Origin: a virus
Lineage: Duplodnaviria > Caudoviricetes
Reading direction: 5' to 3' (one strand)
IMG/VR virus record: IMGVR_UViG_3300022213_000006
Coordinates: 1 to 54,245 of that record
DNA length: 54,245 nt
The translations under genes and the position numbers were made by a program. This document shows, piece after piece, positions 7,300-53,811 of this stretch. The notes below the pieces were generated by a model, which saw nothing but the letters and a program-made list of their open reading frames with translations, ran no database searches and was not told the origin of the DNA. Every line of letters starts with the position of its first letter. The first letter of the stretch is position 1.

Positions 7300-8015
7300 C
7301 GGATCAAGCGGCGAAAGATTTCGAAGCGGTGACGGTCGACAACGTGCTCGCTGGGTACGTGCGGCGCTCAGAGTCTGTCGAGGCGTGGGGCGCCTACAGC
7401 AAAAATCAGAAGCTACTCGCATGGTATCGCTTCCCCGAGTACGCCCGAATGGAAGTGAAGACCCGCCACCGTGCGCTGCTCAAAGCGCGTGCGACTCGCA
7501 GCCGCAACAAACAACCTCGAGACGCGCAGCGCGCGAAGCTCTACAAGGCGGAGTGGGCTGCGCTGGGGAGTATGCAGCTGCGCAGTGGACGCACGATCGC
7601 CGAAGTGAACACCTGGCTTACCTCGTTGTTAGAGATCTACCGCGAGCGCTACGAAAAAGTGCCCACCTTCGTGCAGGTGGAATCCAGCTCCGGGAACCAC
7701 GCGATTTGGTCTCGCAACGTGATCCGTTTGACGCTCCGAGGCCGAGAACAGGATTGGGTGTGCTTGCATGAGCTGGCGCATCTCCTCGTAAAGGAAAACC
7801 CGGGGCATGGGCGGAAATTCGCGAGTGTCTACTTGACCCTGGTCACGGAAGTCTGCGGTCGCATTTGGGGAGACAGATTGCGAGAGGCGTTCCGGGAGCA
7901 CGGTGTGAAGTATCAGGCCAAGCGAGAGCTTTCTCCCGCTCGTTTGGCGGCGCTCCGCGAGCGCGGCAAGCAGCTTGCAGCCTCGCGCTGGGGATCCCCA
8001 TCTGCACCGATCTAG
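7296..8015 (+). CDS. HEXXH metallohydrolase (SprT/Rv0185-like zincin)
   Basis: RDAQRAKLYKAE, LHELAH and GHGRKF motifs. Confidence 0.8.
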   Translation: MTDQAAKDFEAVTVDNVLAGYVRRSESVEAWGAYSKNQKLLAWYRFPEYARMEVKTRHRALLKARATRSRNKQPRDAQRAKLYKAEWAALGSMQLRSGRTIAEVNTWLTSLLEIYRERYEKVPTFVQVESSSGNHAIWSRNVIRLTLRGREQDWVCLHELAHLLVKENPGHGRKFASVYLTLVTEVCGRIWGDRLREAFREHGVKYQAKRELSPARLAALRERGKQLAASRWGSPSAPI

Positions 8016-8341
8016 GCGTCTACTTGTCGTTTTTCCTGGCGCTCGGCGGAGCTGGACTTATGCTCCTCTCCCTGCTGCGCGATAGCCAACGCACGTTGGT
8101 TTTGGGGGCCATCGCGATATGTCTATCCCTGGTGACTTTGACCGCGACGCAGATGTTGTTCGCCACGCCACGATTCGGGGCGTGCAGTCTGACGTTGGAG
8201 ATGGACAAGAGTGCGTCATCCTTACGCTTGCCCTGACGATGCCAGTTGGTGATGGGGAGGCGTTCGTCGCCGCGATCGGTGATTTAATCTCCGACCTCGG
8301 CTACCAGATCAACGCGAAGCTCGTGGACTGAAAGGTCTCGC

Positions 8342-8647
8342 ATGGTCTGCGTCCTAATAATCTGCGGGTGGTGCGGCGGAGACATTCGACCGCCCGACGA
8401 CAGTTACCGCGTGATTCGCTCGCGGCCCGCTTGCTCGACGTGTGTCGAGCGCGGAGTTACTGCAGTTGCTTCAAGAGGAGGATCTGATGTCGGAGTTGCA
8501 CACGACGGACGCAGAAATCGCGTTCGTGCGAGGTCTGGGAACAAACACGCGCGCGGCCATGCGCGCAACGCAAGCGGGCCGCAAAGCGATGCTGGAACAG
8601 ACCGCGAAGCTGCTTCAGGGGTACCTGCGAAGTCTTCCGTTCCGTAG
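8342..8647 (+). CDS. Possible small zinc-ribbon protein
   Basis: CGWC...CSTC; 3' part overlaps next ORF. Confidence 0.4.
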   Translation: MVCVLIICGWCGGDIRPPDDSYRVIRSRPACSTCVERGVTAVASRGGSDVGVAHDGRRNRVRARSGNKHARGHARNASGPQSDAGTDREAASGVPAKSSVP

Positions 8648-8738
8648 CCGGCGCGAGTACATCGACTTTCGGCAAGTGGAGACCGCCGCGACTGAGCGGC
8701 TTCGAGACGTGCAGCGGGCGCTACTGGCTCTGAACTAG
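8487..8738 (+). CDS. Hypothetical protein
   Basis: GAGGAGG RBS before ATG 8487. Confidence 0.7.
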   Translation: MSELHTTDAEIAFVRGLGTNTRAAMRATQAGRKAMLEQTAKLLQGYLRSLPFRSRREYIDFRQVETAATERLRDVQRALLALN

Positions 8739-8749
8739 CCGAGCCCTTC

Positions 8750-10651
8750 GTGGAACGCACGCTTAAACCTCGCCACATCCGCCTGCTCGCCGAAAAAGCG
8801 GTGAGCCTCGATGTGGCCAAGGCTCGCGGGTATTGGTCGCTCGACAGCGCCGATGATTTTCCCAAGCTGGGCTGGGCAAGTCGTGGTCGCAACGCGGCGC
8901 CAAAGTGGCTTCGCCCACCGGGCCTAACAATTCCCCTGTTCTCCCCGGTCGATCTCGAGATTGGCGAGATCGAGAGTTGTTATTCCCAGTTCCGGCCGGA
9001 TCGCCCGGTTGAAGACGACAAGGGCAAGACGCGCAAGTACGTAAACCCCTCCGGCACGCGCGCCATCATCGACGTACATCCGGCGTTCTTCGGGACCGAT
9101 GCGTGGACTGATCGCGACACGCCGCTGTTCATCGTGGAGGGTGTCCCGAAAGAAGACGCGCTTTGGTCCATTGGGATTCCCGCCGTCTCGATTCAAGGGG
9201 TCTGGAATTTCACAAGCGAGAACCCTGACACGCACTACCGGGAGATCCTGCAGGATTTCCGGTATCTCCCCGTTGCGGGTCGTGAAGTTGTTATTGGGTT
9301 CGACGCGGATGCTTGGACGAATCGCGCGGTGCGCGCGGCTGCGCGCGAGCTGGGACGCATTCTTGGGCGCGGTAACGGCGGCGCTTCTGCGGTTCGAGCT
9401 TTACGCCTTCCACACCCTGAGAAGAAGTGGGGTGTGGATGACTTCTTGGCGGACGGCGGCACGCGGGAGTCGCTGCTTGAGCTGATTGTCGATCTCGACA
9501 AGCTCGCCCACGGTGGCCTCAGCGTCCAAGCGCTGAGCGAGATCGCGCCGATGCCGCCCGAGTGTTTGTGGGAGCCGTACCTGATCCGCAACACGTTGGG
9601 CTTTCTGGATGGTGCGCCTGGCGTGGGCAAGACGTGGATCGCGCTGAGCCTCGCAGCTGCCGTAACAACTGGTGGCTCGATGCCGAGTGCCTTCCGAACG
9701 GACAAGGGCAAGATGAGTCGTTGGCCGATCCCGAAAGGCAACGTCGTCTACATCACGCACGAGAACGATCCGAGCACAGCGCTGCGCCCTCGCTTTGATC
9801 GACTCGGCGGCGACGCGTCCAAGTTCTTCGTGCTCGCAACTGGGGATCCTGAAAGCGACGCGTTCACGTTGCAAGACATCGAGCCCCTCGAGAAAATGAT
9901 CGAAGAAATTAAACCCGTGCTCGTCGTGCTCGACCCCATCATGAATTTCCTCGGCGCGAAGACGGATGCACACCGAGACAATGAAGTGCGTCCGCTGCTG
10001 TCGAAGCTCATGCGTCTCGCGTCCAACCACCAGACCACGATGCTTGGCATTCGACACTTGCGAAAGGATTCGACGGGGAGCGCGGTGTACGCGGCTGGTG
10101 GTTCCGTTGCGTTCTCCGGCACGGCTCGCAGTGTTATTATGGCCGGCCGTTATTTCGGAGAGAACGAGTCGGAGAAGCTCGTGCTCGCCCACTCAAAAAC
10201 CAACGAGACTCCCGCTGGCGCGTCGCTCGAATTCGCGGTGACGAACGAGGGCAAGGACGATAAGGGGTTCTACAACGTCGCCTTCGAGTGGCGCGGCGTT
10301 CTGACTGTGCGCGCAGACGAGTTGGTCTCTCAGAAGGCGCCCACGAAAGCGCCGGCCACAAAGCCTCGGGACAAGCTCGCGAATCTGCTCGTCACCCTGC
10401 TCGCACAGAATCCCAACGGCGTCCCGACCACGGTGGTGGCCACCGCGATGAAGAGCATGGAGCTGGCTCCCACGACGCTTAAGCGCGTGGCCGAAGAGAT
10501 CCGCATCCAGCGTGTGCGCGTGGAGCCGCCGAAAGGCAGTCGATCGCGCAAATCCCCGTATTACGTGTGGAAGTACCTGGAAGGCGAGGAACCGGCGAAG
10601 GGTCGAGATTCTGTAGATATTTCACAGAATACCCCTAGCGCGAAGTTTTGA
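8750..10651 (+). CDS. Primase-helicase (Toprim/DUF3854-like plus RepA/AAA_25-like ATPase)
   Basis: Toprim IVEG..K, IGFDAD, GVDDFL; Walker A GAPGVGKT; Walker B VVLDP. Confidence 0.9.
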   Translation: MERTLKPRHIRLLAEKAVSLDVAKARGYWSLDSADDFPKLGWASRGRNAAPKWLRPPGLTIPLFSPVDLEIGEIESCYSQFRPDRPVEDDKGKTRKYVNPSGTRAIIDVHPAFFGTDAWTDRDTPLFIVEGVPKEDALWSIGIPAVSIQGVWNFTSENPDTHYREILQDFRYLPVAGREVVIGFDADAWTNRAVRAAARELGRILGRGNGGASAVRALRLPHPEKKWGVDDFLADGGTRESLLELIVDLDKLAHGGLSVQALSEIAPMPPECLWEPYLIRNTLGFLDGAPGVGKTWIALSLAAAVTTGGSMPSAFRTDKGKMSRWPIPKGNVVYITHENDPSTALRPRFDRLGGDASKFFVLATGDPESDAFTLQDIEPLEKMIEEIKPVLVVLDPIMNFLGAKTDAHRDNEVRPLLSKLMRLASNHQTTMLGIRHLRKDSTGSAVYAAGGSVAFSGTARSVIMAGRYFGENESEKLVLAHSKTNETPAGASLEFAVTNEGKDDKGFYNVAFEWRGVLTVRADELVSQKAPTKAPATKPRDKLANLLVTLLAQNPNGVPTTVVATAMKSMELAPTTLKRVAEEIRIQRVRVEPPKGSRSRKSPYYVWKYLEGEEPAKGRDSVDISQNTPSAKF

Positions 10652-10708
10652 TCCGCGGTAAGATTCCCTCGCATTGATTGGGACACATTCAACACGAGGA
10701 GTTTTAAA

Positions 10709-11167
10709 ATGACGCCGTCCCGGTTCCCGAAGGAAATCACCATCTCCGTCCCGCAGATCCCGAAGATGCCGAAGGCTCCGGCGTCGAAGGTCGACCGCCT
10801 GTACGAGCTGCGCGAGGCACGCCTCGCTTTCGGCCGCGCCATCGGGGAGGCGGAGAAGCTCCTGAGCCGCATCAAGGAAGTCGAGGAGGAGATCGCCCTG
10901 GAGCTGTCCGCAGAGCTGCGCAAGCTCGGCGGCGCGACGAAGCTCTCCGGCGAAGTGGCGACGTTCGCCCCCAGCACGACCCCGGTGTACGCAGTGGCTG
11001 ACTGGGATGCGTTCTATGCCCACATCAAGAAGAACGACGCTTGGGATCTCCTGGAGCGCCGCCCGGCTCGCGCCGCTTTGAATGCCCGGTTCGATGAGCA
11101 CAAGGCGGTCCCGGGCATCCAGCAGGACCGCAAGTTCTCCTACTCGCTGACCAAGGCGAGCCGCTAA
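10709..11167 (+). CDS. Conserved phage replication-module protein
   Basis: GAGGAG RBS; coiled coil followed by VADWDAFY...DLLERR...VPG. Confidence 0.85.
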   Translation: MTPSRFPKEITISVPQIPKMPKAPASKVDRLYELREARLAFGRAIGEAEKLLSRIKEVEEEIALELSAELRKLGGATKLSGEVATFAPSTTPVYAVADWDAFYAHIKKNDAWDLLERRPARAALNARFDEHKAVPGIQQDRKFSYSLTKASR

Positions 11168-11195
11168 GCCAACAAAAACCCTAATAAGAAAGGAG

Positions 11196-11337
11196 GTGGT
11201 AGCAACGAGCATCGAGCCAGCTTCGGGTCTGAGAGCGGACAGGACCGCTCGATCCTCAGCTCGGCGTCCTCCGAGTCGAATCTTGCGGCTGGTCACGCAA
11301 GCGAAGCTCGATCTGGTTCGATGGCCGTTGCTATCAC
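11196..11337 (+). ncRNA. Candidate multibranch structured RNA or cis-regulatory leader
   Basis: Closing helices 11196-11207/11326-11337 (12 bp) and 11210-11220/11313-11323 (11 bp) with G-U pairs, enclosing three hairpins. Confidence 0.8.
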
Positions 11338-11347
11338 TGGAAAGAGA

Positions 11348-11548
11348 ATGAAGACGAAAGTTTCCATCGAGAACGCGAAGGACTACAAGCTGACGAAGCA
11401 GCTCTTCGACGCTGCTTACGCGCGTGAAGTCATGTCCGCTTGCAAGGGCAACGTCACCGAAGCTGCCCGCTTCGCCGGCAAAGAGCGCAAGGACTTCTAC
11501 GATCTGCTCAAGCGTGCAGAGGTTTCTCCGCAGGAATTTCGAGAATGA
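11348..11548 (+). CDS. Stand-alone Fis/NtrC-type helix-turn-helix protein
   Basis: F..AY..EVM...KGNVTEAARFAGKERKDFYDLLKR resembles the C-terminal HTH of sigma54 enhancer-binding proteins. Confidence 0.85.
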   Translation: MKTKVSIENAKDYKLTKQLFDAAYAREVMSACKGNVTEAARFAGKERKDFYDLLKRAEVSPQEFRE

Positions 11549-11880
11549 CGCGCAGTCGTGAAATCGAAGCGGCACTCTGGAGCCGGATCTCCGATCCGGG
11601 GTTGCCCGAGCAGTCAAGGAGCCTCACCTACCTGACGCTGGTGCTCCTGGACTTGGCGGAGAGCGTGGCTTCGATTCAAGCGGCACCCGCTGCGTCGCCT
11701 GTGAGCGCGGAACCGTCCGTTGAAACTCGAGAATCCCTCGCCTACCTCAGTCAGTCTCTGGCCGAGTACCAGGACATTCTCACGCGCGAGCCGACAGCGC
11801 GCATGCCGTGGGGAGCGTTGCGAGAAAAAGGGGAGCAGCTCCGAGCCGCCATCGAGGACGTTCAGCGTCGAGGCCTGTAG
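11545..11880 (+). CDS. Hypothetical protein
   Basis: ATGA coupling with HTH gene; MTRSREIE start. Confidence 0.65.
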   Translation: MTRSREIEAALWSRISDPGLPEQSRSLTYLTLVLLDLAESVASIQAAPAASPVSAEPSVETRESLAYLSQSLAEYQDILTREPTARMPWGALREKGEQLRAAIEDVQRRGL

Positions 11881-11890
11881 GAGGACGACA

Positions 11891-12361
11891 ATGCTTGATT
11901 CTTTGTTGCGTTGGATCGACAACCGAGGCGGTGCGGTTTGGATTCGAGATAACAATTACCTGAAGCGCCACTTCATCGTCTCCTCCAAACACTTCGGAGT
12001 TCTGCTGCACGAGTGGCATGGCTCCGATCCCGATCGGCCGCATTGCCATCCCTGGTGGAGTGTCAGCATTCCACTGCGCGGATATTTGTTGGAACATTTC
12101 CACGACGACACTGTTCGGCACTTGGAGTTTGGACGAATCGCCATTCGCACGTCCCGAGAGCTGCACCGAATTGTGGTGCCGAAGCAGCGCACGCGCCCGG
12201 TGACGCTCTTCATACACGGTCCTGTGCGCCGAAAGTGGGGTTTCATTGCGCCCGCATCGGAGTGGCGTGATCGGTTCTGGGTTTCCGCGACATCCCTGGG
12301 AATTGAGAATTCGCGGAGGCAGCTTCGGGGATGGTTTTTCCCCCGGATTTCAAGCGAATGA
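11891..12361 (+). CDS. Cupin-fold protein (HxHPW family)
   Basis: AGGAGG RBS; LH...D.DRPHCHPW...GYLLE...HRI...TLFIHGP.RRKWGF. Confidence 0.75.
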   Translation: MLDSLLRWIDNRGGAVWIRDNNYLKRHFIVSSKHFGVLLHEWHGSDPDRPHCHPWWSVSIPLRGYLLEHFHDDTVRHLEFGRIAIRTSRELHRIVVPKQRTRPVTLFIHGPVRRKWGFIAPASEWRDRFWVSATSLGIENSRRQLRGWFFPRISSE

Positions 12362-12582
12362 AAGAAGACGTCGTCTTCGGAATGACAAGACTGCCACATG
12401 TACCGCCAGAGAAACGAACGGAGTACGCACGACACATCCGCGAGTTGTCTTCGGTCATTCCGCTCGAAGATGCCTTGTCGATTTTCGTCTCCGAGGCCGC
12501 TGGGCGTGGCTGGCCTTCTGGGGCCCACGTCGAGATTAGAATTCGCACAGCGATCATTGCGCTGAGACAGGATCCAGCGTAG
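12358..12582 (+). CDS. Hypothetical protein
   Basis: ATGA coupling. Confidence 0.5.
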   Translation: MKEDVVFGMTRLPHVPPEKRTEYARHIRELSSVIPLEDALSIFVSEAAGRGWPSGAHVEIRIRTAIIALRQDPA

Positions 12583-12682
12583 GTTCGAAACACTAAATCC
12601 CAAAATTCTCACTCGCGTGATTTCGAGCTTGCTAAGGCAGCAAGTCTCCACCGACGTGGGGAATGTGCAGGAGCACAGCAAC

Positions 12683-13654
12683 ATGGCAAAGATGACGAAG
12701 ACCCGTCAGGAGACGGGTGCTTTGGTGGCACGGGGAAATACCCCGTCCGCTCTGATGGTCCCCGGCTCGGGGCATGTGCCCGAGGGCTGGGAAGCGCGCA
12801 TTCAGCAGTACGCGAAGCGCGACGCGGCTACGGCGAAGGGCGCCGCTGGTTGGCCCTACATCAGCACGAAGGGCGGCGTCTTCAAAGTCGAAGAGACGCG
12901 TCTCGAAGAGCTTCCGCCGATGATCGTCCTCGGCACTGTTTTCGAGAACAGCTTCTTCGCAGGGCTGTACGACGCGGACCACGCGTCGGCACCGACCTGT
13001 TTCGCGATCGGAACCGAGGAGGAGAATCTCGCTCCGCCGGAGTCCCTCGGCGATCAGCGTCAGTGCATTCAGACGGAGCCGACGAGCCCGAAGTGCTCGG
13101 GCTGCTGGGCCAACGTGTTCGGAACCGGAGAACGTGGCAAGGGCAAGGCGTGCAAGAACACGCGACGCCTCGCGCTGCTGCCCGCAGACGAGTTGTCTGT
13201 GGGGAGTCTCTCGCAGGCGCAGTGCTTCATGCTGCGTCTCTCTGTGACGAGCGTGAAGCAGTACGCCTCGTACGCCAACAAGGTGGCGCGATCGCTGGAG
13301 ATCCCGCTCTTCATGCTGCGGACGCGGATCCGGATCGAGCCCGACCCGAAGACTCAGTTCAAGATCCTCTTCGAGCCGTACGACATCGTGGAGCAGGACG
13401 GTCGCGTCCTTCCCCTGCTGATCGGAGATTCCGATCTGCTGACCGCGATCGAAGGCCGCGTGAAGGAAGCTGAGAACTTCCTGATGCAGGTTCCGAGCGC
13501 CCGCGACGATGAGAGCGAGGGTGCTCCGAAGCGTCGCGCGGTGGCTCCCGCGCCGCAGCGCAAGCCGCAGATTGGCCGCGCCGGCACGTCTCGCAAGGCG
13601 TCGGATGCGCCCGCCACGGGCGGCGTGAAGCGCGCAGCCACGGCGAAGTACTAG
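12683..13654 (+). CDS. Putative single-stranded DNA-binding protein (Zn-binding phage type)
   Basis: AGGAG RBS; PTCFA..CxxC..N.FG..GKGKACKN.RRL; directly upstream of polymerase. Confidence 0.7.
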   Translation: MAKMTKTRQETGALVARGNTPSALMVPGSGHVPEGWEARIQQYAKRDAATAKGAAGWPYISTKGGVFKVEETRLEELPPMIVLGTVFENSFFAGLYDADHASAPTCFAIGTEEENLAPPESLGDQRQCIQTEPTSPKCSGCWANVFGTGERGKGKACKNTRRLALLPADELSVGSLSQAQCFMLRLSVTSVKQYASYANKVARSLEIPLFMLRTRIRIEPDPKTQFKILFEPYDIVEQDGRVLPLLIGDSDLLTAIEGRVKEAENFLMQVPSARDDESEGAPKRRAVAPAPQRKPQIGRAGTSRKASDAPATGGVKRAATAKY

Positions 13655-13658
13655 CTCC

Positions 13659-13749
13659 GAGGTTGTCGAGTCGTCGTAGCCTTCTTCGCATTCCTCCACC
13701 TGGCACCCCCATCCCAGGAGCGGAGAGGCGACGGCGGCTCGACTTCCTC
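13659..13749 (+). promoter_or_regulatory. Long irregular hairpin in the polymerase leader
   Basis: GTCGAGTCGTCGT(13665-13677) pairs with ACGGCGGCTCGAC(13731-13743); further inner helices; no U tract. Confidence 0.7.
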
Positions 13750-13754
13750 TCTCG

Positions 13755-15788
13755 TTGTTGGGGTGTTCTCTGACTGCTCCGATCGCAATCGACTTCGAGA
13801 CTAAGCCGATCAAGCCTAGGCCCGAGTATCCCCCGGAGCCCGTGGGCGTCGCGATTATGGAGCCGGGCTCGAGGCCAACGTACCTTGCCTGGGGTCATCG
13901 CGGCGGGAATAACACCTGCACGAAACGTGAAGCCGCCGTGCGGCTGCGAGCGCTGTGGAAGAGCGGGAGACCGCTTCTGTTCCACAATGCGAAGTTCGAC
14001 ATCGATGTGGCTGAGACGTTCTTCGATCTGAAGCGGCCGGCCTACGACAACTTCTTCGACACCATGCTCGAAGCTTTTCTGTATGACCCAAATTCGCGTG
14101 AGCTGGGATTGAAAGAGCAAGCGACTGTTCACCTCGCCATGCCACCGGAAGAGCAGGACGAGGTCGTCAAGTGGCTGATGAAGAACATCCCAGCGCTCAA
14201 GCGGAAGAAGAAGGAAGCGAAGGCGAATCTTTGGCTCGCCCCGGCCAACATCGTTCGCCCGTATGCGATCGGGGATGTGGTTCGAACTCGCAAGCTTCAC
14301 GACTTCTTCTTTCCGTGGCTGCGAGATTCCCAGGTGCTCGAAGCGTATGATCGCGAGCGACGATTCATGTACGTCATCCTCGACATGGAACGTCTGGGTG
14401 TTCCCATTGACGCAGATCGTTTGCGGACGAGTATCGAGGGGGCTGACGGGCTCAATTGGACGAATTCTCTGAGAACGGTCGAAGACTGGATCGTGAAAGA
14501 GTTGCGTCGACGCTCGCGTCGAACCGGCGAGATCAATCTCGACTCGAACGAAGAGTTGGCCGACGCGCTTGAAGCGGCTCGACTTGTTAGGCCCGGAAAC
14601 TGGGTGATGACGGAACCCACTGCCGACTTCGCGCAGGGTCAGCGATCCGTTTCGATCGAAAATCTTGGGAAGGCTATCGAGGATCCCCTCGTCTATGGGG
14701 CGCTTCGATATCGCGCGTCGCTTGCGCACTCGGTGCGGACCAACGCGCGACCGTGGCTTGCAATGGCGGGTGCGGGTTCCAGCATCTACCCGCAGTGGAA
14801 TCAAGTGCGCCAGGCCTCGACGGGAACGACGCGCAGGCAGATCGGCGCCCGCACGGGACGCGTCAGCTCCACGCCGAACGCGCAGAATCTTGCGAACGAG
14901 CCGATGCGGATCTTCTTCGATGCGTCGAAGATGCAGCAGGCGCTTGAGTTAGCGGAAGCAAACAAAGAAGAGTGGAGAGCGCTGCTGATGCCCCCGGACT
15001 TGGAGGGGAAGATCTCGCCGCTTCCGTGGATGCGTGACTTTGTGATCCCTGATGTCCCAGAGCGGGCGCATCTGAGCGTGCTCGGGGATCGAGACTACGC
15101 CCAGCAAGAGTTGCGAATTCTCGCGCACTTTATGGAAGGTGCGGCTCTCGAGATTTACAAAGAGAACCCAGAGACTGACTTTCATCAGATGGCGACAGAC
15201 GAGTTGCACGAGCGCTACTCGCACCTCGCGCACTACAAGCGCAGCAAGGTCAAAGCGGTGGTGCTCGCGATCATTTATGCGCGCGGCATTCCTGCGTTGG
15301 CTGCCCAGCTTGGGATCACCATCGAAGAGGCCCGGCAGCTGAAGAATGCGATCTTGTCGCTCTTCCCCGGAGTGAAAACTCTGATGGACAACCTGCGTCG
15401 CCGAGCGGCACTGGAGCAACCCATTCGTACCTGGGGAGGCCGGGTCTACTACGTTGAACCACCGGTCGAAATCATCGACAAGATCTCCAAGCTTCCGCGC
15501 TTGCAGACCTTCGAGTACAAGATGATCAACACGCTGATCCAAGGCAGCGCGGCCGACAACACGAAGGAAGCGATGATCCGCTACCACGAAGACCCGAGGC
15601 GTCAGGGTCGCATGCTGCTTCAGGTTCATGACGAGCTGGTGATGACGGGCAGACGCGAAGGTTTCGACGCTGAGATGTCGCTTCTGCGGGAACACATGGA
15701 GAGTGTCGAGTTCGACGTGCCGATGAGAACGGAAGGGGAGTGGGGTCCGACGTGGGCTCAGCTGTCGCCGTATAACGATCAACGCTGA
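13755..15788 (+). CDS. polA: DNA polymerase family A with 3'-5' exonuclease; start uncertain (TTG 13755/13758 or CTG 13770)
   Basis: Exo IDFET, HNAKFD, YAIGD; motif A DYAQQELRILAH, B KAVVLAIIY, C VHDEL. Confidence 0.97.
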   Translation: MLGCSLTAPIAIDFETKPIKPRPEYPPEPVGVAIMEPGSRPTYLAWGHRGGNNTCTKREAAVRLRALWKSGRPLLFHNAKFDIDVAETFFDLKRPAYDNFFDTMLEAFLYDPNSRELGLKEQATVHLAMPPEEQDEVVKWLMKNIPALKRKKKEAKANLWLAPANIVRPYAIGDVVRTRKLHDFFFPWLRDSQVLEAYDRERRFMYVILDMERLGVPIDADRLRTSIEGADGLNWTNSLRTVEDWIVKELRRRSRRTGEINLDSNEELADALEAARLVRPGNWVMTEPTADFAQGQRSVSIENLGKAIEDPLVYGALRYRASLAHSVRTNARPWLAMAGAGSSIYPQWNQVRQASTGTTRRQIGARTGRVSSTPNAQNLANEPMRIFFDASKMQQALELAEANKEEWRALLMPPDLEGKISPLPWMRDFVIPDVPERAHLSVLGDRDYAQQELRILAHFMEGAALEIYKENPETDFHQMATDELHERYSHLAHYKRSKVKAVVLAIIYARGIPALAAQLGITIEEARQLKNAILSLFPGVKTLMDNLRRRAALEQPIRTWGGRVYYVEPPVEIIDKISKLPRLQTFEYKMINTLIQGSAADNTKEAMIRYHEDPRRQGRMLLQVHDELVMTGRREGFDAEMSLLREHMESVEFDVPMRTEGEWGPTWAQLSPYNDQR

Positions 15789-52858: not shown

Positions 52859-53256
52859 CGCTTTCTCCCGCTAGCACCAGCCGCTTGTCTGAGTCGGTCC
52901 CACAAATCCGGGTGGTATCTCTGAAGAAAACTGAGCGTCTGCCGTTTCTTCAGAGGCGCTCTCGCAAACTCCGAGCACACTTTCCTCTGCGCCTCGTCCA
53001 GACGCAGTGACGCACCCTTCTGATCCTTAATGAGAACATCCTGGTCACTGGGCGTGTCCGCCACTGCCTTGGCGGCGGCGTACAATCGCCCAATCAAATC
53101 TTCCCAAGGAAAGCTGTGGCCATGAACGACTTTCAGCTCGCAGAGACCTAATAGCCAAGAGCGTAGAGGCTCGCGACCCAACTGAGAAGCTTCCTGAGCT
53201 AGCGGAACGATCTCCTGCGCAGCTTGTGAAACTGGATCCAGCATCCTCTTCTTCAC
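52816..53256 (-). CDS. Hypothetical protein
   Basis: AGGAGG RBS before GTG; first gene of late arm. Confidence 0.65.
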   Translation of the reverse strand: MKKRMLDPVSQAAQEIVPLAQEASQLGREPLRSWLLGLCELKVVHGHSFPWEDLIGRLYAAAKAVADTPSDQDVLIKDQKGASLRLDEAQRKVCSEFARAPLKKRQTLSFLQRYHPDLWDRLRQAAGASGRKRWQERAVLGKQLPS

Positions 53257-53285
53257 GAGACAGCCTCCTGCTAAAAATTCCCAAC

Positions 53286-53564
53286 ATGACGGACGAACTC
53301 AAAAACGCTCTACAACGTATCGGAACCCCTGCCTACGATCTCGCACTTGAGATCTATGAAAGCGAAGAGTCAGGCGAGGGGCTGGCGTACCGTCGTTTTG
53401 AGATTCAAGTCCAAACGACAAAGTCCGATGGCGAAACGCAGTTGCAGGTAATTCCCTGCGTCTGCATCGTCGCCACCGGACTCGGAGCCCAGGCCGCGGA
53501 AGCGGCCATAGACGAGTTCGCGCGGTTTATGCGCGAACGATCTAGGCAGACCCCCACTGCTTGA
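53286..53564 (+). CDS. Hypothetical protein
   Basis: Acidic 92-aa ORF; weak RBS. Confidence 0.5.
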   Translation: MTDELKNALQRIGTPAYDLALEIYESEESGEGLAYRRFEIQVQTTKSDGETQLQVIPCVCIVATGLGAQAAEAAIDEFARFMRERSRQTPTA

Positions 53565-53811
53565 GCAGTGTGCGCGCCTCACGCGTGAGCGTGACGCCCG
53601 AGCGCGACGCATCGTCGATCAGCGTCTTGTTGGCGTTGCGGGACAGACGCGCCACCGTCGTGTGGACGTTCCCCGCACTGATTCCCAGCGCGCGAGCCGC
53701 TCCGTTGTAGGAGCCGTTCTCTGCCACGGCCTTGAGCACAGCGATCTGACGCGTGGTGACCGAGGGCGGGCGCCCCACGGCTGACTTCTTCGACTTCACC
53801 TTCTTGGACAC
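53542..53811 (-). CDS. Stand-alone LysR/ModE-type winged HTH protein
   Basis: AAGGAG RBS before GTG 53811; TTRQIAVLKAVAENGSYNGAARALGIS...V...L.......L.......VTLT. Confidence 0.85.
   Translation of the reverse strand: MSKKVKSKKSAVGRPPSVTTRQIAVLKAVAENGSYNGAARALGISAGNVHTTVARLSRNANKTLIDDASRSGVTLTREARTLLKQWGSA

What the first reader, a model, noticed from the sequence alone, without database searches (positions are those of the whole stretch)
11196..11337. 142-nt multibranch RNA with complementary (kissing) loops
Seen: a 12-bp plus 11-bp closing helix (2x2 internal loop), a third helix TCGGGT/GCTCGA, then three hairpins: (CTGA)GAGCGG-ACAGGA-CCGCTC, CTCGG-CGTCCT-CCGAG and CTTGCG-GCTGGTCA-CGCAAG. 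The non-Watson-Crick pairs within the helices are G-U on the + strand, which favours RNA over a DNA cruciform. Loop 1 (AGGA[C]) is complementary to loop 2 ([G]TCCT). I do not recognise the family. Inference: an undescribed phage ncRNA or cis element; the closing stem could be an RNase III site that releases the core. Loop 1 also carries the CAGGA motif bound by CsrA/RsmA proteins.
Basis: partly seen in the sequence, partly recalled or inferred. Interest (0 to 1): 0.8.

Follow-up and report, generated by a model that had tools for sequence, protein, structure and literature searches.

The report
Folded RNA splitting phage ribosome-binding site
A strongly folding 142-base RNA structure lies between two replication genes of an uncultured 54-kb phage, exactly between a perfect ribosome-binding sequence and the next gene's start codon; it fits no known RNA family and no relative carries it, so its role, most likely bringing the two halves of the ribosome site together or marking an RNA cut site, is still untested.

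Summary
The structure is real. Window 11196-11337 (+) folds at -76.3 kcal/mol, z -6.2 against shuffles, and the minus strand is 14 kcal/mol weaker. The closing helices P1, P2 and P3 and hairpin 2 are robust. There is no Rfam, tRNA or tmRNA match.

It is a singleton. There is one copy in the phage and none in 90 related or candidate loci, three whole related phage records, or pattern scans of viral and bacterial collections. The nearest relatives have a roughly 95-aa ORF at this place, or nothing. Covariation therefore cannot be tested.

Context points to a cis-acting mRNA element. It lies inside a co-directional replication operon with no promoter or terminator nearby. An 11-nt Shine-Dalgarno match abuts the helix base and has no start codon of its own. 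The HTH gene's AUG lies 10 nt beyond the helix and has almost no SD.

Best reading (confidence about 0.4): a very large split ribosome-binding site of the phage T4 gene 25/38 type. Main rival: an RNase III processing or stability site. This scan noted the split-RBS reading on this same stretch, and split RBSs in other genomes on unrelated sequence.

The parts
10709..11167 (+). Upstream gene, 152 aa (phrog_13900 family), stop TAA at 11165-11167
   Evidence: The PHROG hit has E 2.2e-13. Homologues of 59% and 55% identity were found. GC3 is 0.88.
11168..11189 (+). A-rich leader that is largely unpaired, between the stop codon and the SD
   Evidence: Sequence. In the 351-nt context fold most positions have unpaired probability of at least 0.85; a weak 3-bp CCU/AGG pairing is the exception.
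11190..11200 (+). Extended Shine-Dalgarno match (AAGGAGGTGGT). Its last 5 nt are also the first 5 nt of P1.
   Evidence: That is second strongest in the genome and, by my reading of gene positions, the strongest outside a coding region. No ATG, GTG or TTG lies 3-12 nt downstream.
11196..11207 (+). P1 5' arm, pairs with 11326-11337 (12 bp, 1 G-U)
   Evidence: Pair probabilities are 0.96-1.0. The helix persists in the 351-nt context fold.
11210..11220 (+). P2 5' arm, pairs with 11313-11323 (11 bp, 1 G-U). It is separated from P1 by a 2x2 internal loop (11208-11209 opposite 11324-11325).
   Evidence: Pair probabilities are 0.90-1.0.
11223..11228 (+). P3 5' arm, pairs with 11306-11311 (6 bp, 2 G-U)
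   Evidence: Pair probabilities are 0.93-0.95, except 0.46 for the last pair.
11229..11259 (+). H1: 4-bp base (CTGA/TCAG), 6-bp stem GAGCGG/CCGCTC, loop ACAGGA, 5-nt bulge. Alternative to the rod pairing with the H3 region.
   Evidence: Probability is about 0.15 in the RNA ensemble. It is part of the MFE under DNA parameters.
11260..11275 (+). H2: 5-bp stem CTCGG/CCGAG, loop CGTCCT (contains an anti-SD-like CCTCC run extending into the 3' stem)
   Evidence: Pair probabilities are 0.98-1.0.
11282..11301 (+). H3: 6-bp stem CTTGCG/CGCAAG, loop GCTGGTCA. Alternative to the rod pairing with the H1 region.
   Evidence: Probability is about 0.14.
11306..11337 (+). 3' arms of P3, P2 and P1
11338..11347 (+). 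10-nt spacer (TGGAAAGAGA) between the helix end and the AUG, with only a very weak local SD
   Evidence: The best local anti-SD duplex is -3.3 kcal/mol, against a median of -8.4 for 79 ORF starts in a noisy set.
11348..11548 (+). Downstream gene, 66-aa Fis-type HTH-like protein
   Evidence: Homologues of 44% identity lie in L082, L083 and L084, and of 47-49% in L088 and L089. GC3 is 0.70. There is no Pfam hit.

Best explanation
The element is a cis-acting structure in the polycistronic + strand mRNA of the phage's replication operon. It is not a member of any described RNA family.

It is placed precisely inside the translation initiation region of the small HTH gene. A perfect, extended Shine-Dalgarno sequence (11190-11200) sits at the 5' foot of the closing helix. 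The AUG (11348) lies 10 nt beyond the 3' foot. When the 142 nt fold, the P1/P2 helix loops them out, and the SD-AUG distance drops from 151 nt to about 10 nt plus the width of a helix. This would be a split ('accommodated') ribosome-binding site of the kind shown for phage T4 genes 38 and 25, but with a multibranch insert several times larger.

Shown: the fold, its strand preference, the SD, the absence of a nearby start codon, the weak local SD, and the spacing.

Inferred: that ribosomes use the distant SD, and that the two near-isoenergetic core folds or RNase III cleavage of the helix modulate this.

The element is probably a lineage-specific insertion or replacement at a variable spot. Relatives carry a roughly 95-aa ORF there, translationally coupled to the HTH gene.
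For: - **Fold:** z is -6.2 on the + strand, which is 14 kcal/mol better than the minus strand. P1 and P2 persist in a 351-nt context fold, where the AUG region is mostly accessible.
- **SD:** AAGGAGGTGGT gives -18.3 kcal/mol against the 16S tail, second strongest of about 108 kb scanned on both strands. No ATG, GTG or TTG lies 3-12 nt downstream. The only in-frame start, GTG 11196, has zero spacing from the SD.
- **The overlapping ORF looks non-coding:** the 51-aa ORF over the element has GC1/2/3 of 0.63/0.60/0.54, whereas the 7 neighbouring + strand genes have GC3 of 0.64-0.88.
- **Local SD is weak:** the HTH AUG has only -3.3 kcal/mol of local SD pairing.
- **Spacing fits this phage:** the 10-nt spacer equals the longest SD-start spacings seen elsewhere in it. 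Examples are AGGAGG+10+ATG before the 308-aa gene and AAGGAG+10+ATG before the 153-aa gene; others use 5-9 nt.
- **The upstream ribosome should not melt P1:** the upstream stop codon is 28 nt before the helix.
- **Operon context:** there is no sigma-70-like promoter in 8000-14000. The only two + strand terminator-like sites, at 8264 and 8949, are over 2 kb upstream.
- **Precedent:** in T4 genes 38 and 25 a structure reduces spacing from 22 to 5 nt and from 27 to 11 nt (PMC3014915, passages read).
Against: - There is no conservation. The element is absent from every relative found, so no covariation exists, and the arrangement could be a recent and possibly neutral or harmful insertion.
- In L082 and L084 (read; L083 has tblastn coordinates identical to L082), and in L088 and L089, the HTH gene has an ordinary contiguous start region.
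- Strong anti-SD matches also occur by chance inside genes here: -18.6 at minus-strand 33129 and -17.4 at 10881. Only 22 of 67 SD-like hexamer hits precede a start codon.
- The effective spacing of 10 nt plus a helix width is at the long end of what works.
- Full 11-bp SD pairing would melt 5 bp of P1.
- A helix of 12 bp, a 2x2 loop and 11 bp is a plausible RNase III substrate. Cleavage there would separate the SD from the AUG.
- No known split RBS carries an insert this large.
- The 16S tail used is a recalled consensus, because the host is unknown.
- An in-frame ATG at 11321 inside P2 cannot be excluded as the true start. It has no SD, and GC3 of the extra 9 codons is 4 of 9 by my count.
Confidence: 0.4

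Rival explanations
1. The element is an RNase III processing and/or mRNA-stability signal. The P1, 2x2 loop and P2 helix is cut by host RNase III, as at the intercistronic signals of phage T7 early mRNA. This would separate the primase-helicase/152-aa message from the HTH and downstream message. Depending on whether one or both strands are cut, it would leave a protective 3' hairpin on the upstream RNA or release the core. The SD match at the foot would then be incidental.
For: - The helix has 12 + 11 bp around a central 2x2 loop, about two helical turns. [quoted passage not shown] T7's polycistronic early precursor has five such signals (PMC3867540, passages read).
- The position is intercistronic in a long co-directional operon without terminators.
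- The polymerase leader at 13659-13749 also carries a long + strand hairpin, though only at z -3.5. The operon may therefore use several such structures.
Against: - It explains neither the perfect 11-nt SD at the foot nor the missing SD of the HTH gene.
- A simple hairpin would be enough for processing. The roughly 90-nt branched core is unexplained.
- Sequence determinants and antideterminants of RNase III were not evaluated, and the host enzyme is unknown.
- No RNA data exist.
Confidence: 0.25
2. The element is a selfish or accidental palindromic insertion (MITE-, REPIN- or Correia-like) that landed in the spacer of a once-contiguous RBS. It is tolerated because it folds out of the way and has no function of its own.
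For: - The ends are long inverted repeats (12 + 11 nt). A TGG lies at both borders (11197-11199 and 11338-11340).
- Removing 11197-11337 would leave AAGGAGG, 10 nt, then ATG, a normal RBS for this phage.
- The element sits at a variable spot that holds a different insert (a roughly 95-aa ORF) in the nearest relatives.
- Correia elements of Neisseria have inverted-repeat ends and bind or are cut by RNase III (PMC2649163, abstract seen in the listing).
- REPINs are hairpin-forming mobile doublets (PMC3116915, abstract).
Against: - There is a single copy in the phage.
- The 24-base terminal-repeat pattern has 0 matches in viral contigs and 0 in genome contigs, which covers 185,579 species genomes.
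- The three inner hairpins do not resemble one another.
- A 3-nt direct repeat is expected by chance.
- The pattern scans needed exact 12-mers, so diverged copies, or a host absent from the collection, would be missed.
Confidence: 0.12
3. The element is a free-standing, trans-acting small RNA released from the operon transcript. Its loops would act on other targets or proteins. Loop 1 is SD-like, loop 2 is anti-SD-like, and CsrA/RsmA might bind the AGGA loop.
For: - The fold is compact and very stable, with a long closing helix that could be a release site.
- The loop 2 region is complementary to SD sequences such as the RBS of the 156-aa gene at 11879-11886 (read).
- Loop 1 carries an AGGA.
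Against: - It has no promoter or terminator of its own.
- There is no family resemblance to any of 4227 Rfam models.
- There are no homologues anywhere.
- Only one GGA-bearing loop is present, whereas Rsm-type sponges carry several (recalled).
- Loop-loop complementarity is at chance level.
- SD and anti-SD complementarity is generic.
Confidence: 0.1
4. The element acts at the DNA level. It could be a single-strand initiation or origin signal, or a cruciform, next to the primase-helicase gene, or a pair of inverted protein-binding sites.
For:
- The minus strand also folds, z -3.9.
- The element sits in the replication module, about 550 nt downstream of the primase-helicase gene.
Against: - The strand difference is much larger with RNA parameters (14 kcal/mol) than with DNA parameters (4.3 kcal/mol).
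- There are no iterons or other repeats around it.
- Relatives with the same replication genes lack it.
Confidence: 0.05

Closest known systems
Split ('accommodated') translation initiation regions of phage T4 genes 38 and 25 (Nivinskas et al. 1999 and Malys & Nivinskas 2009, as reviewed in PMC3014915; passages read)
   Same: The SD and AUG are too far apart in the linear sequence. A stable intervening structure brings them to a working distance: here 151 nt down to about 10 nt, in T4 gene 25 from 27 to 11 nt. The arrangement is restricted to one lineage. The T4 gene 25 split RBS is likewise absent from more distant T4-like phages.
   Different: The insert is 142 nt with a 29-bp three-part stem and a branched or rod-like core, against a hairpin within a 22-27-nt spacing in T4. 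There is no experimental support here and no conservation even among the nearest relatives. The SD overlaps the first 5 nt of the helix.
RNase III processing signals of the phage T7 early polycistronic mRNA, such as R1.1 (PMC3867540, passages read; PMC1540722, abstract seen in the listing only)
   Same: It is an intercistronic irregular helix in a phage operon. A lower stem, internal loop and upper stem together span about two helical turns.
   Different: T7 signals are simple hairpins of roughly 60 nt (recalled). This element carries about 90 nt of further structure on top. Cleavage is untested, and there is no sequence similarity (no Rfam or other match).
Bacterial palindromic intergenic repeats: Correia elements, REPINs and other MITEs (PMC2649163 and PMC3116915, abstracts only)
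   Same: It is about 100-150 nt with long terminal inverted repeats. It folds as a long hairpin in RNA, lies between genes, and is potentially an RNase III target.
   Different: Those are multicopy families within a genome. This is a single copy, and no second copy was found anywhere.
phi29 packaging RNA (recalled, not tested beyond Rfam)
   Same: It is a phage RNA of similar size, multibranched, with two mutually complementary loops.
   Different: There is no Rfam match. The element lies in the replication operon of a 54-kb phage. The 4-nt loop complementarity is within chance.

Membership tests
Any Rfam 15 family (4227 models, including ribozymes, riboswitches, Y RNA-like, C4 and pRNA) | Covariance-model score at or above the gathering threshold | tested here: not met
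   There are 0 matches at gathering score in the whole window. There are 0 matches overlapping the element at E <= 10 in 10900-11700. There are 0 matches at E <= 10 on 11180-11352 alone.
tRNA / tmRNA | Cloverleaf recognised by ARAGORN | tested here: not met
   There are 0 genes in the window.
Split RBS (T4 gene 25/38 type) | SD separated from the start codon by more than a workable linear distance, with no start codon next to the SD | tested here: met
   The SD ends at 11196-11200 and the AUG is at 11348. No ATG, GTG or TTG lies 3-12 nt after the SD.
Split RBS (T4 gene 25/38 type) | Intervening sequence forms a stable structure that restores a workable spacing | tested here: met
   P1 and P2 pair probabilities are at least 0.9, and the helices persist in context. 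Ten nt run from the helix end to the AUG, which equals the longest spacings of other genes in this phage. This is in silico only.
Split RBS (T4 gene 25/38 type) | No adequate SD next to the start codon | tested here: met
   The best local duplex is -3.3 kcal/mol, against -18.3 for the distant SD. The anti-SD motif was recalled and the host is unknown.
Split RBS (T4 gene 25/38 type) | Destabilising the structure lowers translation and compensatory changes restore it | not testable with these tools
   This needs reporter fusions or toeprinting.
Split RBS (T4 gene 25/38 type) | Arrangement kept among related phages | tested here: not met
   L082, L083, L084, L088 and L089 carry the HTH gene without the element.
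RNase III processing site | About 22 bp (two turns) of mostly regular dsRNA | tested here: met
   The layout is 12 bp, a 2x2 loop and 11 bp, then 6 more bp. The criterion comes from PMC3867540.
RNase III processing site | Cleavage by RNase III and absence of antideterminant base pairs | not tested
   Box positions were not analysed and the enzyme's host is unknown. An in vitro digestion is needed.
MITE / REPIN / Correia-like repeat | Multiple copies in a genome | tested here: not met
   There is one copy in the phage. The terminal-repeat pattern has 0 hits in viral contigs and 0 in genome contigs. The exact 12-mers required mean diverged copies could be missed.
MITE / REPIN / Correia-like repeat | Terminal inverted repeats and target-site duplication | tested here: inconclusive
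   Inverted ends are present. The flanking TGG/TGG is too short to mean anything.
Retron msr/msd RNA | Adjacent reverse transcriptase gene | tested here: not met
   PF00078 has 0 matches in the whole phage, while the control genomes matched.
CsrA/RsmA-binding sponge RNA | Several GGA motifs presented in hairpin loops (feature recalled) | tested here: not met
   Only loop 1 (ACAGGA) carries GGA. Loops 2 and 3 are CGTCCT and GCTGGTCA.
Small protein gene (51-aa ORF 11196-11351) | Coding-type codon-position composition and a usable start | tested here: not met
   GC1/2/3 is 0.63/0.60/0.54, against GC3 of 0.64-0.88 in real genes. The GTG start abuts the SD with zero spacing. There is no Pfam or PHROG hit.

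The most novel reading that the evidence does not exclude
This would be the largest split ribosome-binding site yet seen. A 142-nt RNA with a 29-bp three-part stem and a core that can flip between a rod and a four-way junction is looped out between a perfect SD and the AUG of a phage Fis-like regulator. Translation of that regulator would then depend on correct folding of the insert. Cutting the stem with RNase III, or refolding the core, could switch it off.
Probability: 0.3. Interest if true: 0.6.

Novelty: new variant of a known kind. Interest (0 to 1): 0.4.

Why it matters
If ribosomes really initiate across a 142-nt folded insert, the split-RBS mechanism known from two T4 genes tolerates far larger structures than has been shown. 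Gene finders and RBS models that demand a contiguous SD-start spacing would then miss or mis-start such genes.

It would also show how a phage can absorb an insertion in a translation start region without losing the gene, and possibly turn it into a control point for a DNA-binding regulator of its replication module.

If the element is instead only an RNase III or stability site, or an insertion scar, it is an ordinary feature of phage operons. With a single copy and no homologues, the case currently rests on one sequence.

Tried and rejected
**Known RNA families.** Rfam gave nothing at gathering score or at E <= 10, and ARAGORN found nothing.

**Homologues through the upstream gene.**
- The single-protein scan of viral contigs found none.
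- The protein database gave 8 proteins including the window's own.
- The alignment scan of viral contigs matched 164 stretches; 121 encode relatives and the best 80 were kept.
- The metagenome scan matched 212 stretches and found 3 relatives.
- The genome-contig scan matched 145 stretches and found 2 distant relatives on short MAG contigs.

**Homologues through the HTH gene.** The single-protein scan found none. The alignment scan matched 87 stretches and found 2 relatives.

**Element against the fetched loci.**
- blastn-short and nhmmer of the element against 83 loci gave only 12-17-nt matches at E >= 0.81, and 0 nhmmer hits.
- The single-sequence covariance model R1, run on the window plus 83 loci, found only the element itself: 176 bits on the + strand and 55 bits on its own minus strand. 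The other 8 listed matches score <= 16.2 bits at E >= 1.4.
- On 5 more loci the best match is 16.5 bits, E 0.064, over 64 nt. I judged this noise from its score and did not inspect it.
- On 2 cultured-phage loci the best is 12.4 bits.
- On 3 whole records there are 0 matches at E <= 1. L082 and L083 are not held and so were not searched.

**Pattern scans.**
- The terminal-arm pattern has 0 hits in viral contigs and 0 in genome contigs.
- The loop pattern has 1 hit in viral contigs (L085). It lies in an AT-rich stretch with no matching stems and was rejected as chance on reading.

**Other comparisons.**
- blastn 'distant' of 10700-11900 against the phage collection matched 1 record, within the 152-aa gene only.
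- The element is not detectably a remnant of the relatives' roughly 95-aa ORF (blastn and tblastx, E >= 0.2).
- A T7-type RNA polymerase search gave no match, but the control genomes did not match either, so it says nothing.

**Sequencing runs.**
- No RNA holder is listed.
- In the laid contigs of 4 DNA runs, no contig joins across the element.
- One run (X2) holds an identical 161-nt piece covering 11170-11330.
- One run (X3) holds a variant contig covering 11009-11232 with 7 changes, all in 11074-11138 of the coding region. Five are synonymous and 2 are not. None falls in 11139-11232.
- That variation is patchy (none in 11009-11073 either), so I do not count it as evidence of constraint.

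**Steps I could not run.**
- A host-family search for a host-derived copy was not possible.
- No pseudoknot-aware folding tool was available.
- Supplements of papers were not consulted.
Full report
**What the window is.** The window is a complete 54,245-bp uncultured virus record; CheckV estimates 100% completeness. Genes run on the + strand up to about 23 kb and on the minus strand after that. Its nearest cultured relatives are distant. Stenotrophomonas phage AXL3 and Pseudoxanthomonas phage PW916 share about 39% identity in DNA polymerase and about 32% in the 152-aa protein. The host is unknown.

**The observation.**
- As + strand RNA, the 142 nt fold at -76.3 kcal/mol. Dinucleotide shuffles average -52.0 (sd 3.9), giving z -6.2, and 0 of 200 shuffles do as well.
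- The minus strand reaches -62.3, z -3.8.
- With DNA parameters the strands differ by only 4.3 kcal/mol: -39.9 against -35.6.
- The three-part closing stem and hairpin H2 are robust. P1 is 12 bp, then a 2x2 loop, P2 is 11 bp and P3 is 6 bp. Pair probabilities are mostly 0.9-1.0.
- H1 and H3 have probability of only about 0.14. The RNA MFE pairs their regions with each other into a rod.
It is the MFE under DNA parameters. The core therefore has two near-equal folds.
- The 4-nt complementarity between loops 1 and 2 is expected in 3.7% of random loop pairs, and in 14.7% for any pair of the three loops. It is not evidence by itself.
- The stems hold four G-U pairs, and one A-opposite-C position lies in the internal loop. 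This favours the + strand only weakly. The energy gap is the better argument.
- In a scan of 4328 windows of 150 nt, the only clearly stronger structure in the phage lies on the minus strand at about 53380-53600.

**Not a known family and not a gene.**
- Rfam 15 gives nothing at gathering score for the window, nothing overlapping the element at E <= 10, and nothing at E <= 10 for the element alone.
- There are no tRNA or tmRNA genes.
- The phage has no reverse transcriptase, so a retron is excluded.
- A 51-aa ORF (GTG 11196 to TGA 11351) covers the element exactly. Its codon-position GC is flat at 0.63/0.60/0.54, whereas the neighbouring + strand genes have GC3 of 0.64-0.88.
- Its GTG abuts the SD with zero spacing, and it has no Pfam or PHROG hit. 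I treat it as a chance open frame.

**Context.** The element lies in the replication module, in this order:
- primase-helicase, 8750-10651;
- a 152-aa gene of family phrog_13900, 10709-11167;
- the element;
- a 66-aa Fis-type HTH-like gene, 11348-11548;
- further small genes;
- family-A DNA polymerase, 13755-15788.

There is no sigma-70-like promoter in 8000-14000. The only + strand terminator-like sites are at 8264 and 8949. The element is therefore most likely internal to a polycistronic + strand mRNA.

**It is a singleton.**
- There is one copy in the phage.
- The closest relatives I could reach are metagenome contigs L082, L083 and L084. They share 60% identity in primase-helicase, 59-65% in the 152-aa protein and 44% in the HTH protein.
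- Between the 152-aa and HTH genes these relatives have a roughly 95-aa ORF joined to both neighbours by overlapping stop and start codons, and no structure.
- That ORF shows no detectable similarity to the element.
- Two further phages with the HTH gene, L088 and L089, also have it packed directly behind upstream coding sequence.
- AXL3 has 67 nt between the 152-aa homologue and the next gene, and no HTH gene.
- Sequence searches, a single-sequence covariance model, whole-record searches and two kinds of pattern scan all found no second copy anywhere.
- Contigs of public runs show the same phage in a second sediment sample, identical over 11170-11330. They also show a variant in a marine sample that is unchanged over the leader and the first 37 nt of the element. 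This is too little for any covariation test.

What can be said is that the element is lineage-specific and sits at a variable spot.

**What it most likely does.** The decisive context is at the two feet of the closing helix.
- *5' foot.* After a 22-nt A-rich, mostly unpaired leader comes AAGGAGGTGGT (11190-11200). This is an 11-nt match to the conserved 16S 3' tail at -18.3 kcal/mol. It is the second strongest match in about 108 kb scanned on both strands and, by my reading of gene positions, the strongest one outside a coding region.
- No ATG, GTG or TTG follows it within 3-12 nt.
- *3' foot.* Ten nt after the last pair lies the AUG of the HTH gene. Its local SD pairing is only -3.3 kcal/mol.
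- Other genes of this phage use AGGAGG followed by 5-10 nt. With the 141 nt looped out, the SD-AUG geometry becomes normal for this phage, at its long end.
- This is the split or 'accommodated' RBS shown for T4 genes 38 and 25. There a structure shortens 22 nt to 5 and 27 nt to 11, and it is likewise confined to one sublineage (PMC3014915, passages read).
- The idea that this stretch is a split RBS came to me from another first-stage note on the same stretch (e1-6286099). I had already noted the orphan SD. I tested the SD strength, the spacing, the local SD and the absence of starts myself.
- I put this reading at about 0.4.

**Arguments against the split-RBS reading.**
- There is no conservation.
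- Equally strong anti-SD matches occur by chance inside genes.
- The spacing is borderline.
- The SD overlaps P1.
- The stem looks like an RNase III substrate, and cutting it would uncouple the SD from the AUG.

**Rivals.**
- *RNase III processing or stability signal (0.25).* This resembles the T7 early signals. The layout of 12 bp, a central 2x2 loop and 11 bp matches the two-turn idealised substrate, and internal loops give single-strand cuts that leave stabilising 3' hairpins (PMC3867540). It leaves the orphan SD and the branched core unexplained. The two readings can be combined: an intact fold allows HTH translation, and cleavage ends it.
- *Selfish palindromic insertion tolerated because it folds out of the RBS (0.12).* This is compatible with the split-RBS geometry. 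There is no second copy anywhere.
- *ssDNA or dsDNA signal of the replication module (0.05).*

**Verdict.** The element is a real, unusually stable, + strand-biased structure with no described family, present in a single phage lineage. It is most likely a cis-acting mRNA element of the HTH gene's start region. The split-RBS reading would be a large new variant of a known mechanism. All functional claims are inferences from one sequence. This scan has logged many split-RBS candidates in other genomes, none on look-alike sequence. I score interest at 0.4.

Noticed in passing
window 53380-53600, minus strand: This is the strongest predicted structure in the phage: 221 nt at -122.7 kcal/mol, z -8.5, multibranched. 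It lies in the gap between the minus-strand 233-aa and 146-aa genes. A + strand ORF (53226-53564, 112 aa, GC1/2/3 0.62/0.46/0.58) overlaps it. There is no Rfam match at gathering score.
   Followed up: partly
window 13659-13749, + strand: A long G-U-containing hairpin lies just upstream of the DNA polymerase start region. The 151-nt fold is -66.3 kcal/mol with z only -3.5. Its base pairs GAGG with CCUC. It is weaker than the element and not built like it.
   Followed up: partly
L082 3451-3738; L084 about 206-490: In the nearest relatives, the place of the element is taken by a roughly 95-aa ORF joined to both neighbours by overlapping stop and start codons (GTGA and the like). This spot between the 152-aa and HTH genes is a variable insertion site.
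   Followed up: partly
window 11348-11548: This 66-aa protein has a conserved AGKERKDFYDL motif shared with phage proteins of 44-49% identity in four other lineages. It has no Pfam hit. It looks like an isolated Fis-type helix-turn-helix (resemblance recalled).
   Followed up: partly
window 13126-13325, + strand: Windows inside the 345-aa gene fold about 3.4 sd below the GC-based expectation (-76 kcal/mol per 150 nt). I did not examine them further.
   Followed up: no
window 11009-11232 and 12205-12343 (run X3): A marine metagenome run holds a variant of this phage. It shows 7 changes in 224 nt and 21 changes in 139 nt on two short contigs. Related strains therefore exist outside the source sample.
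   Followed up: partly
window 12362-12616, + strand: A 255-nt gap lies before the 345-aa gene, whose listed GTG start at 12617 has no SD-like sequence upstream. The gene's true start and the content of this gap are unresolved.
   Followed up: no
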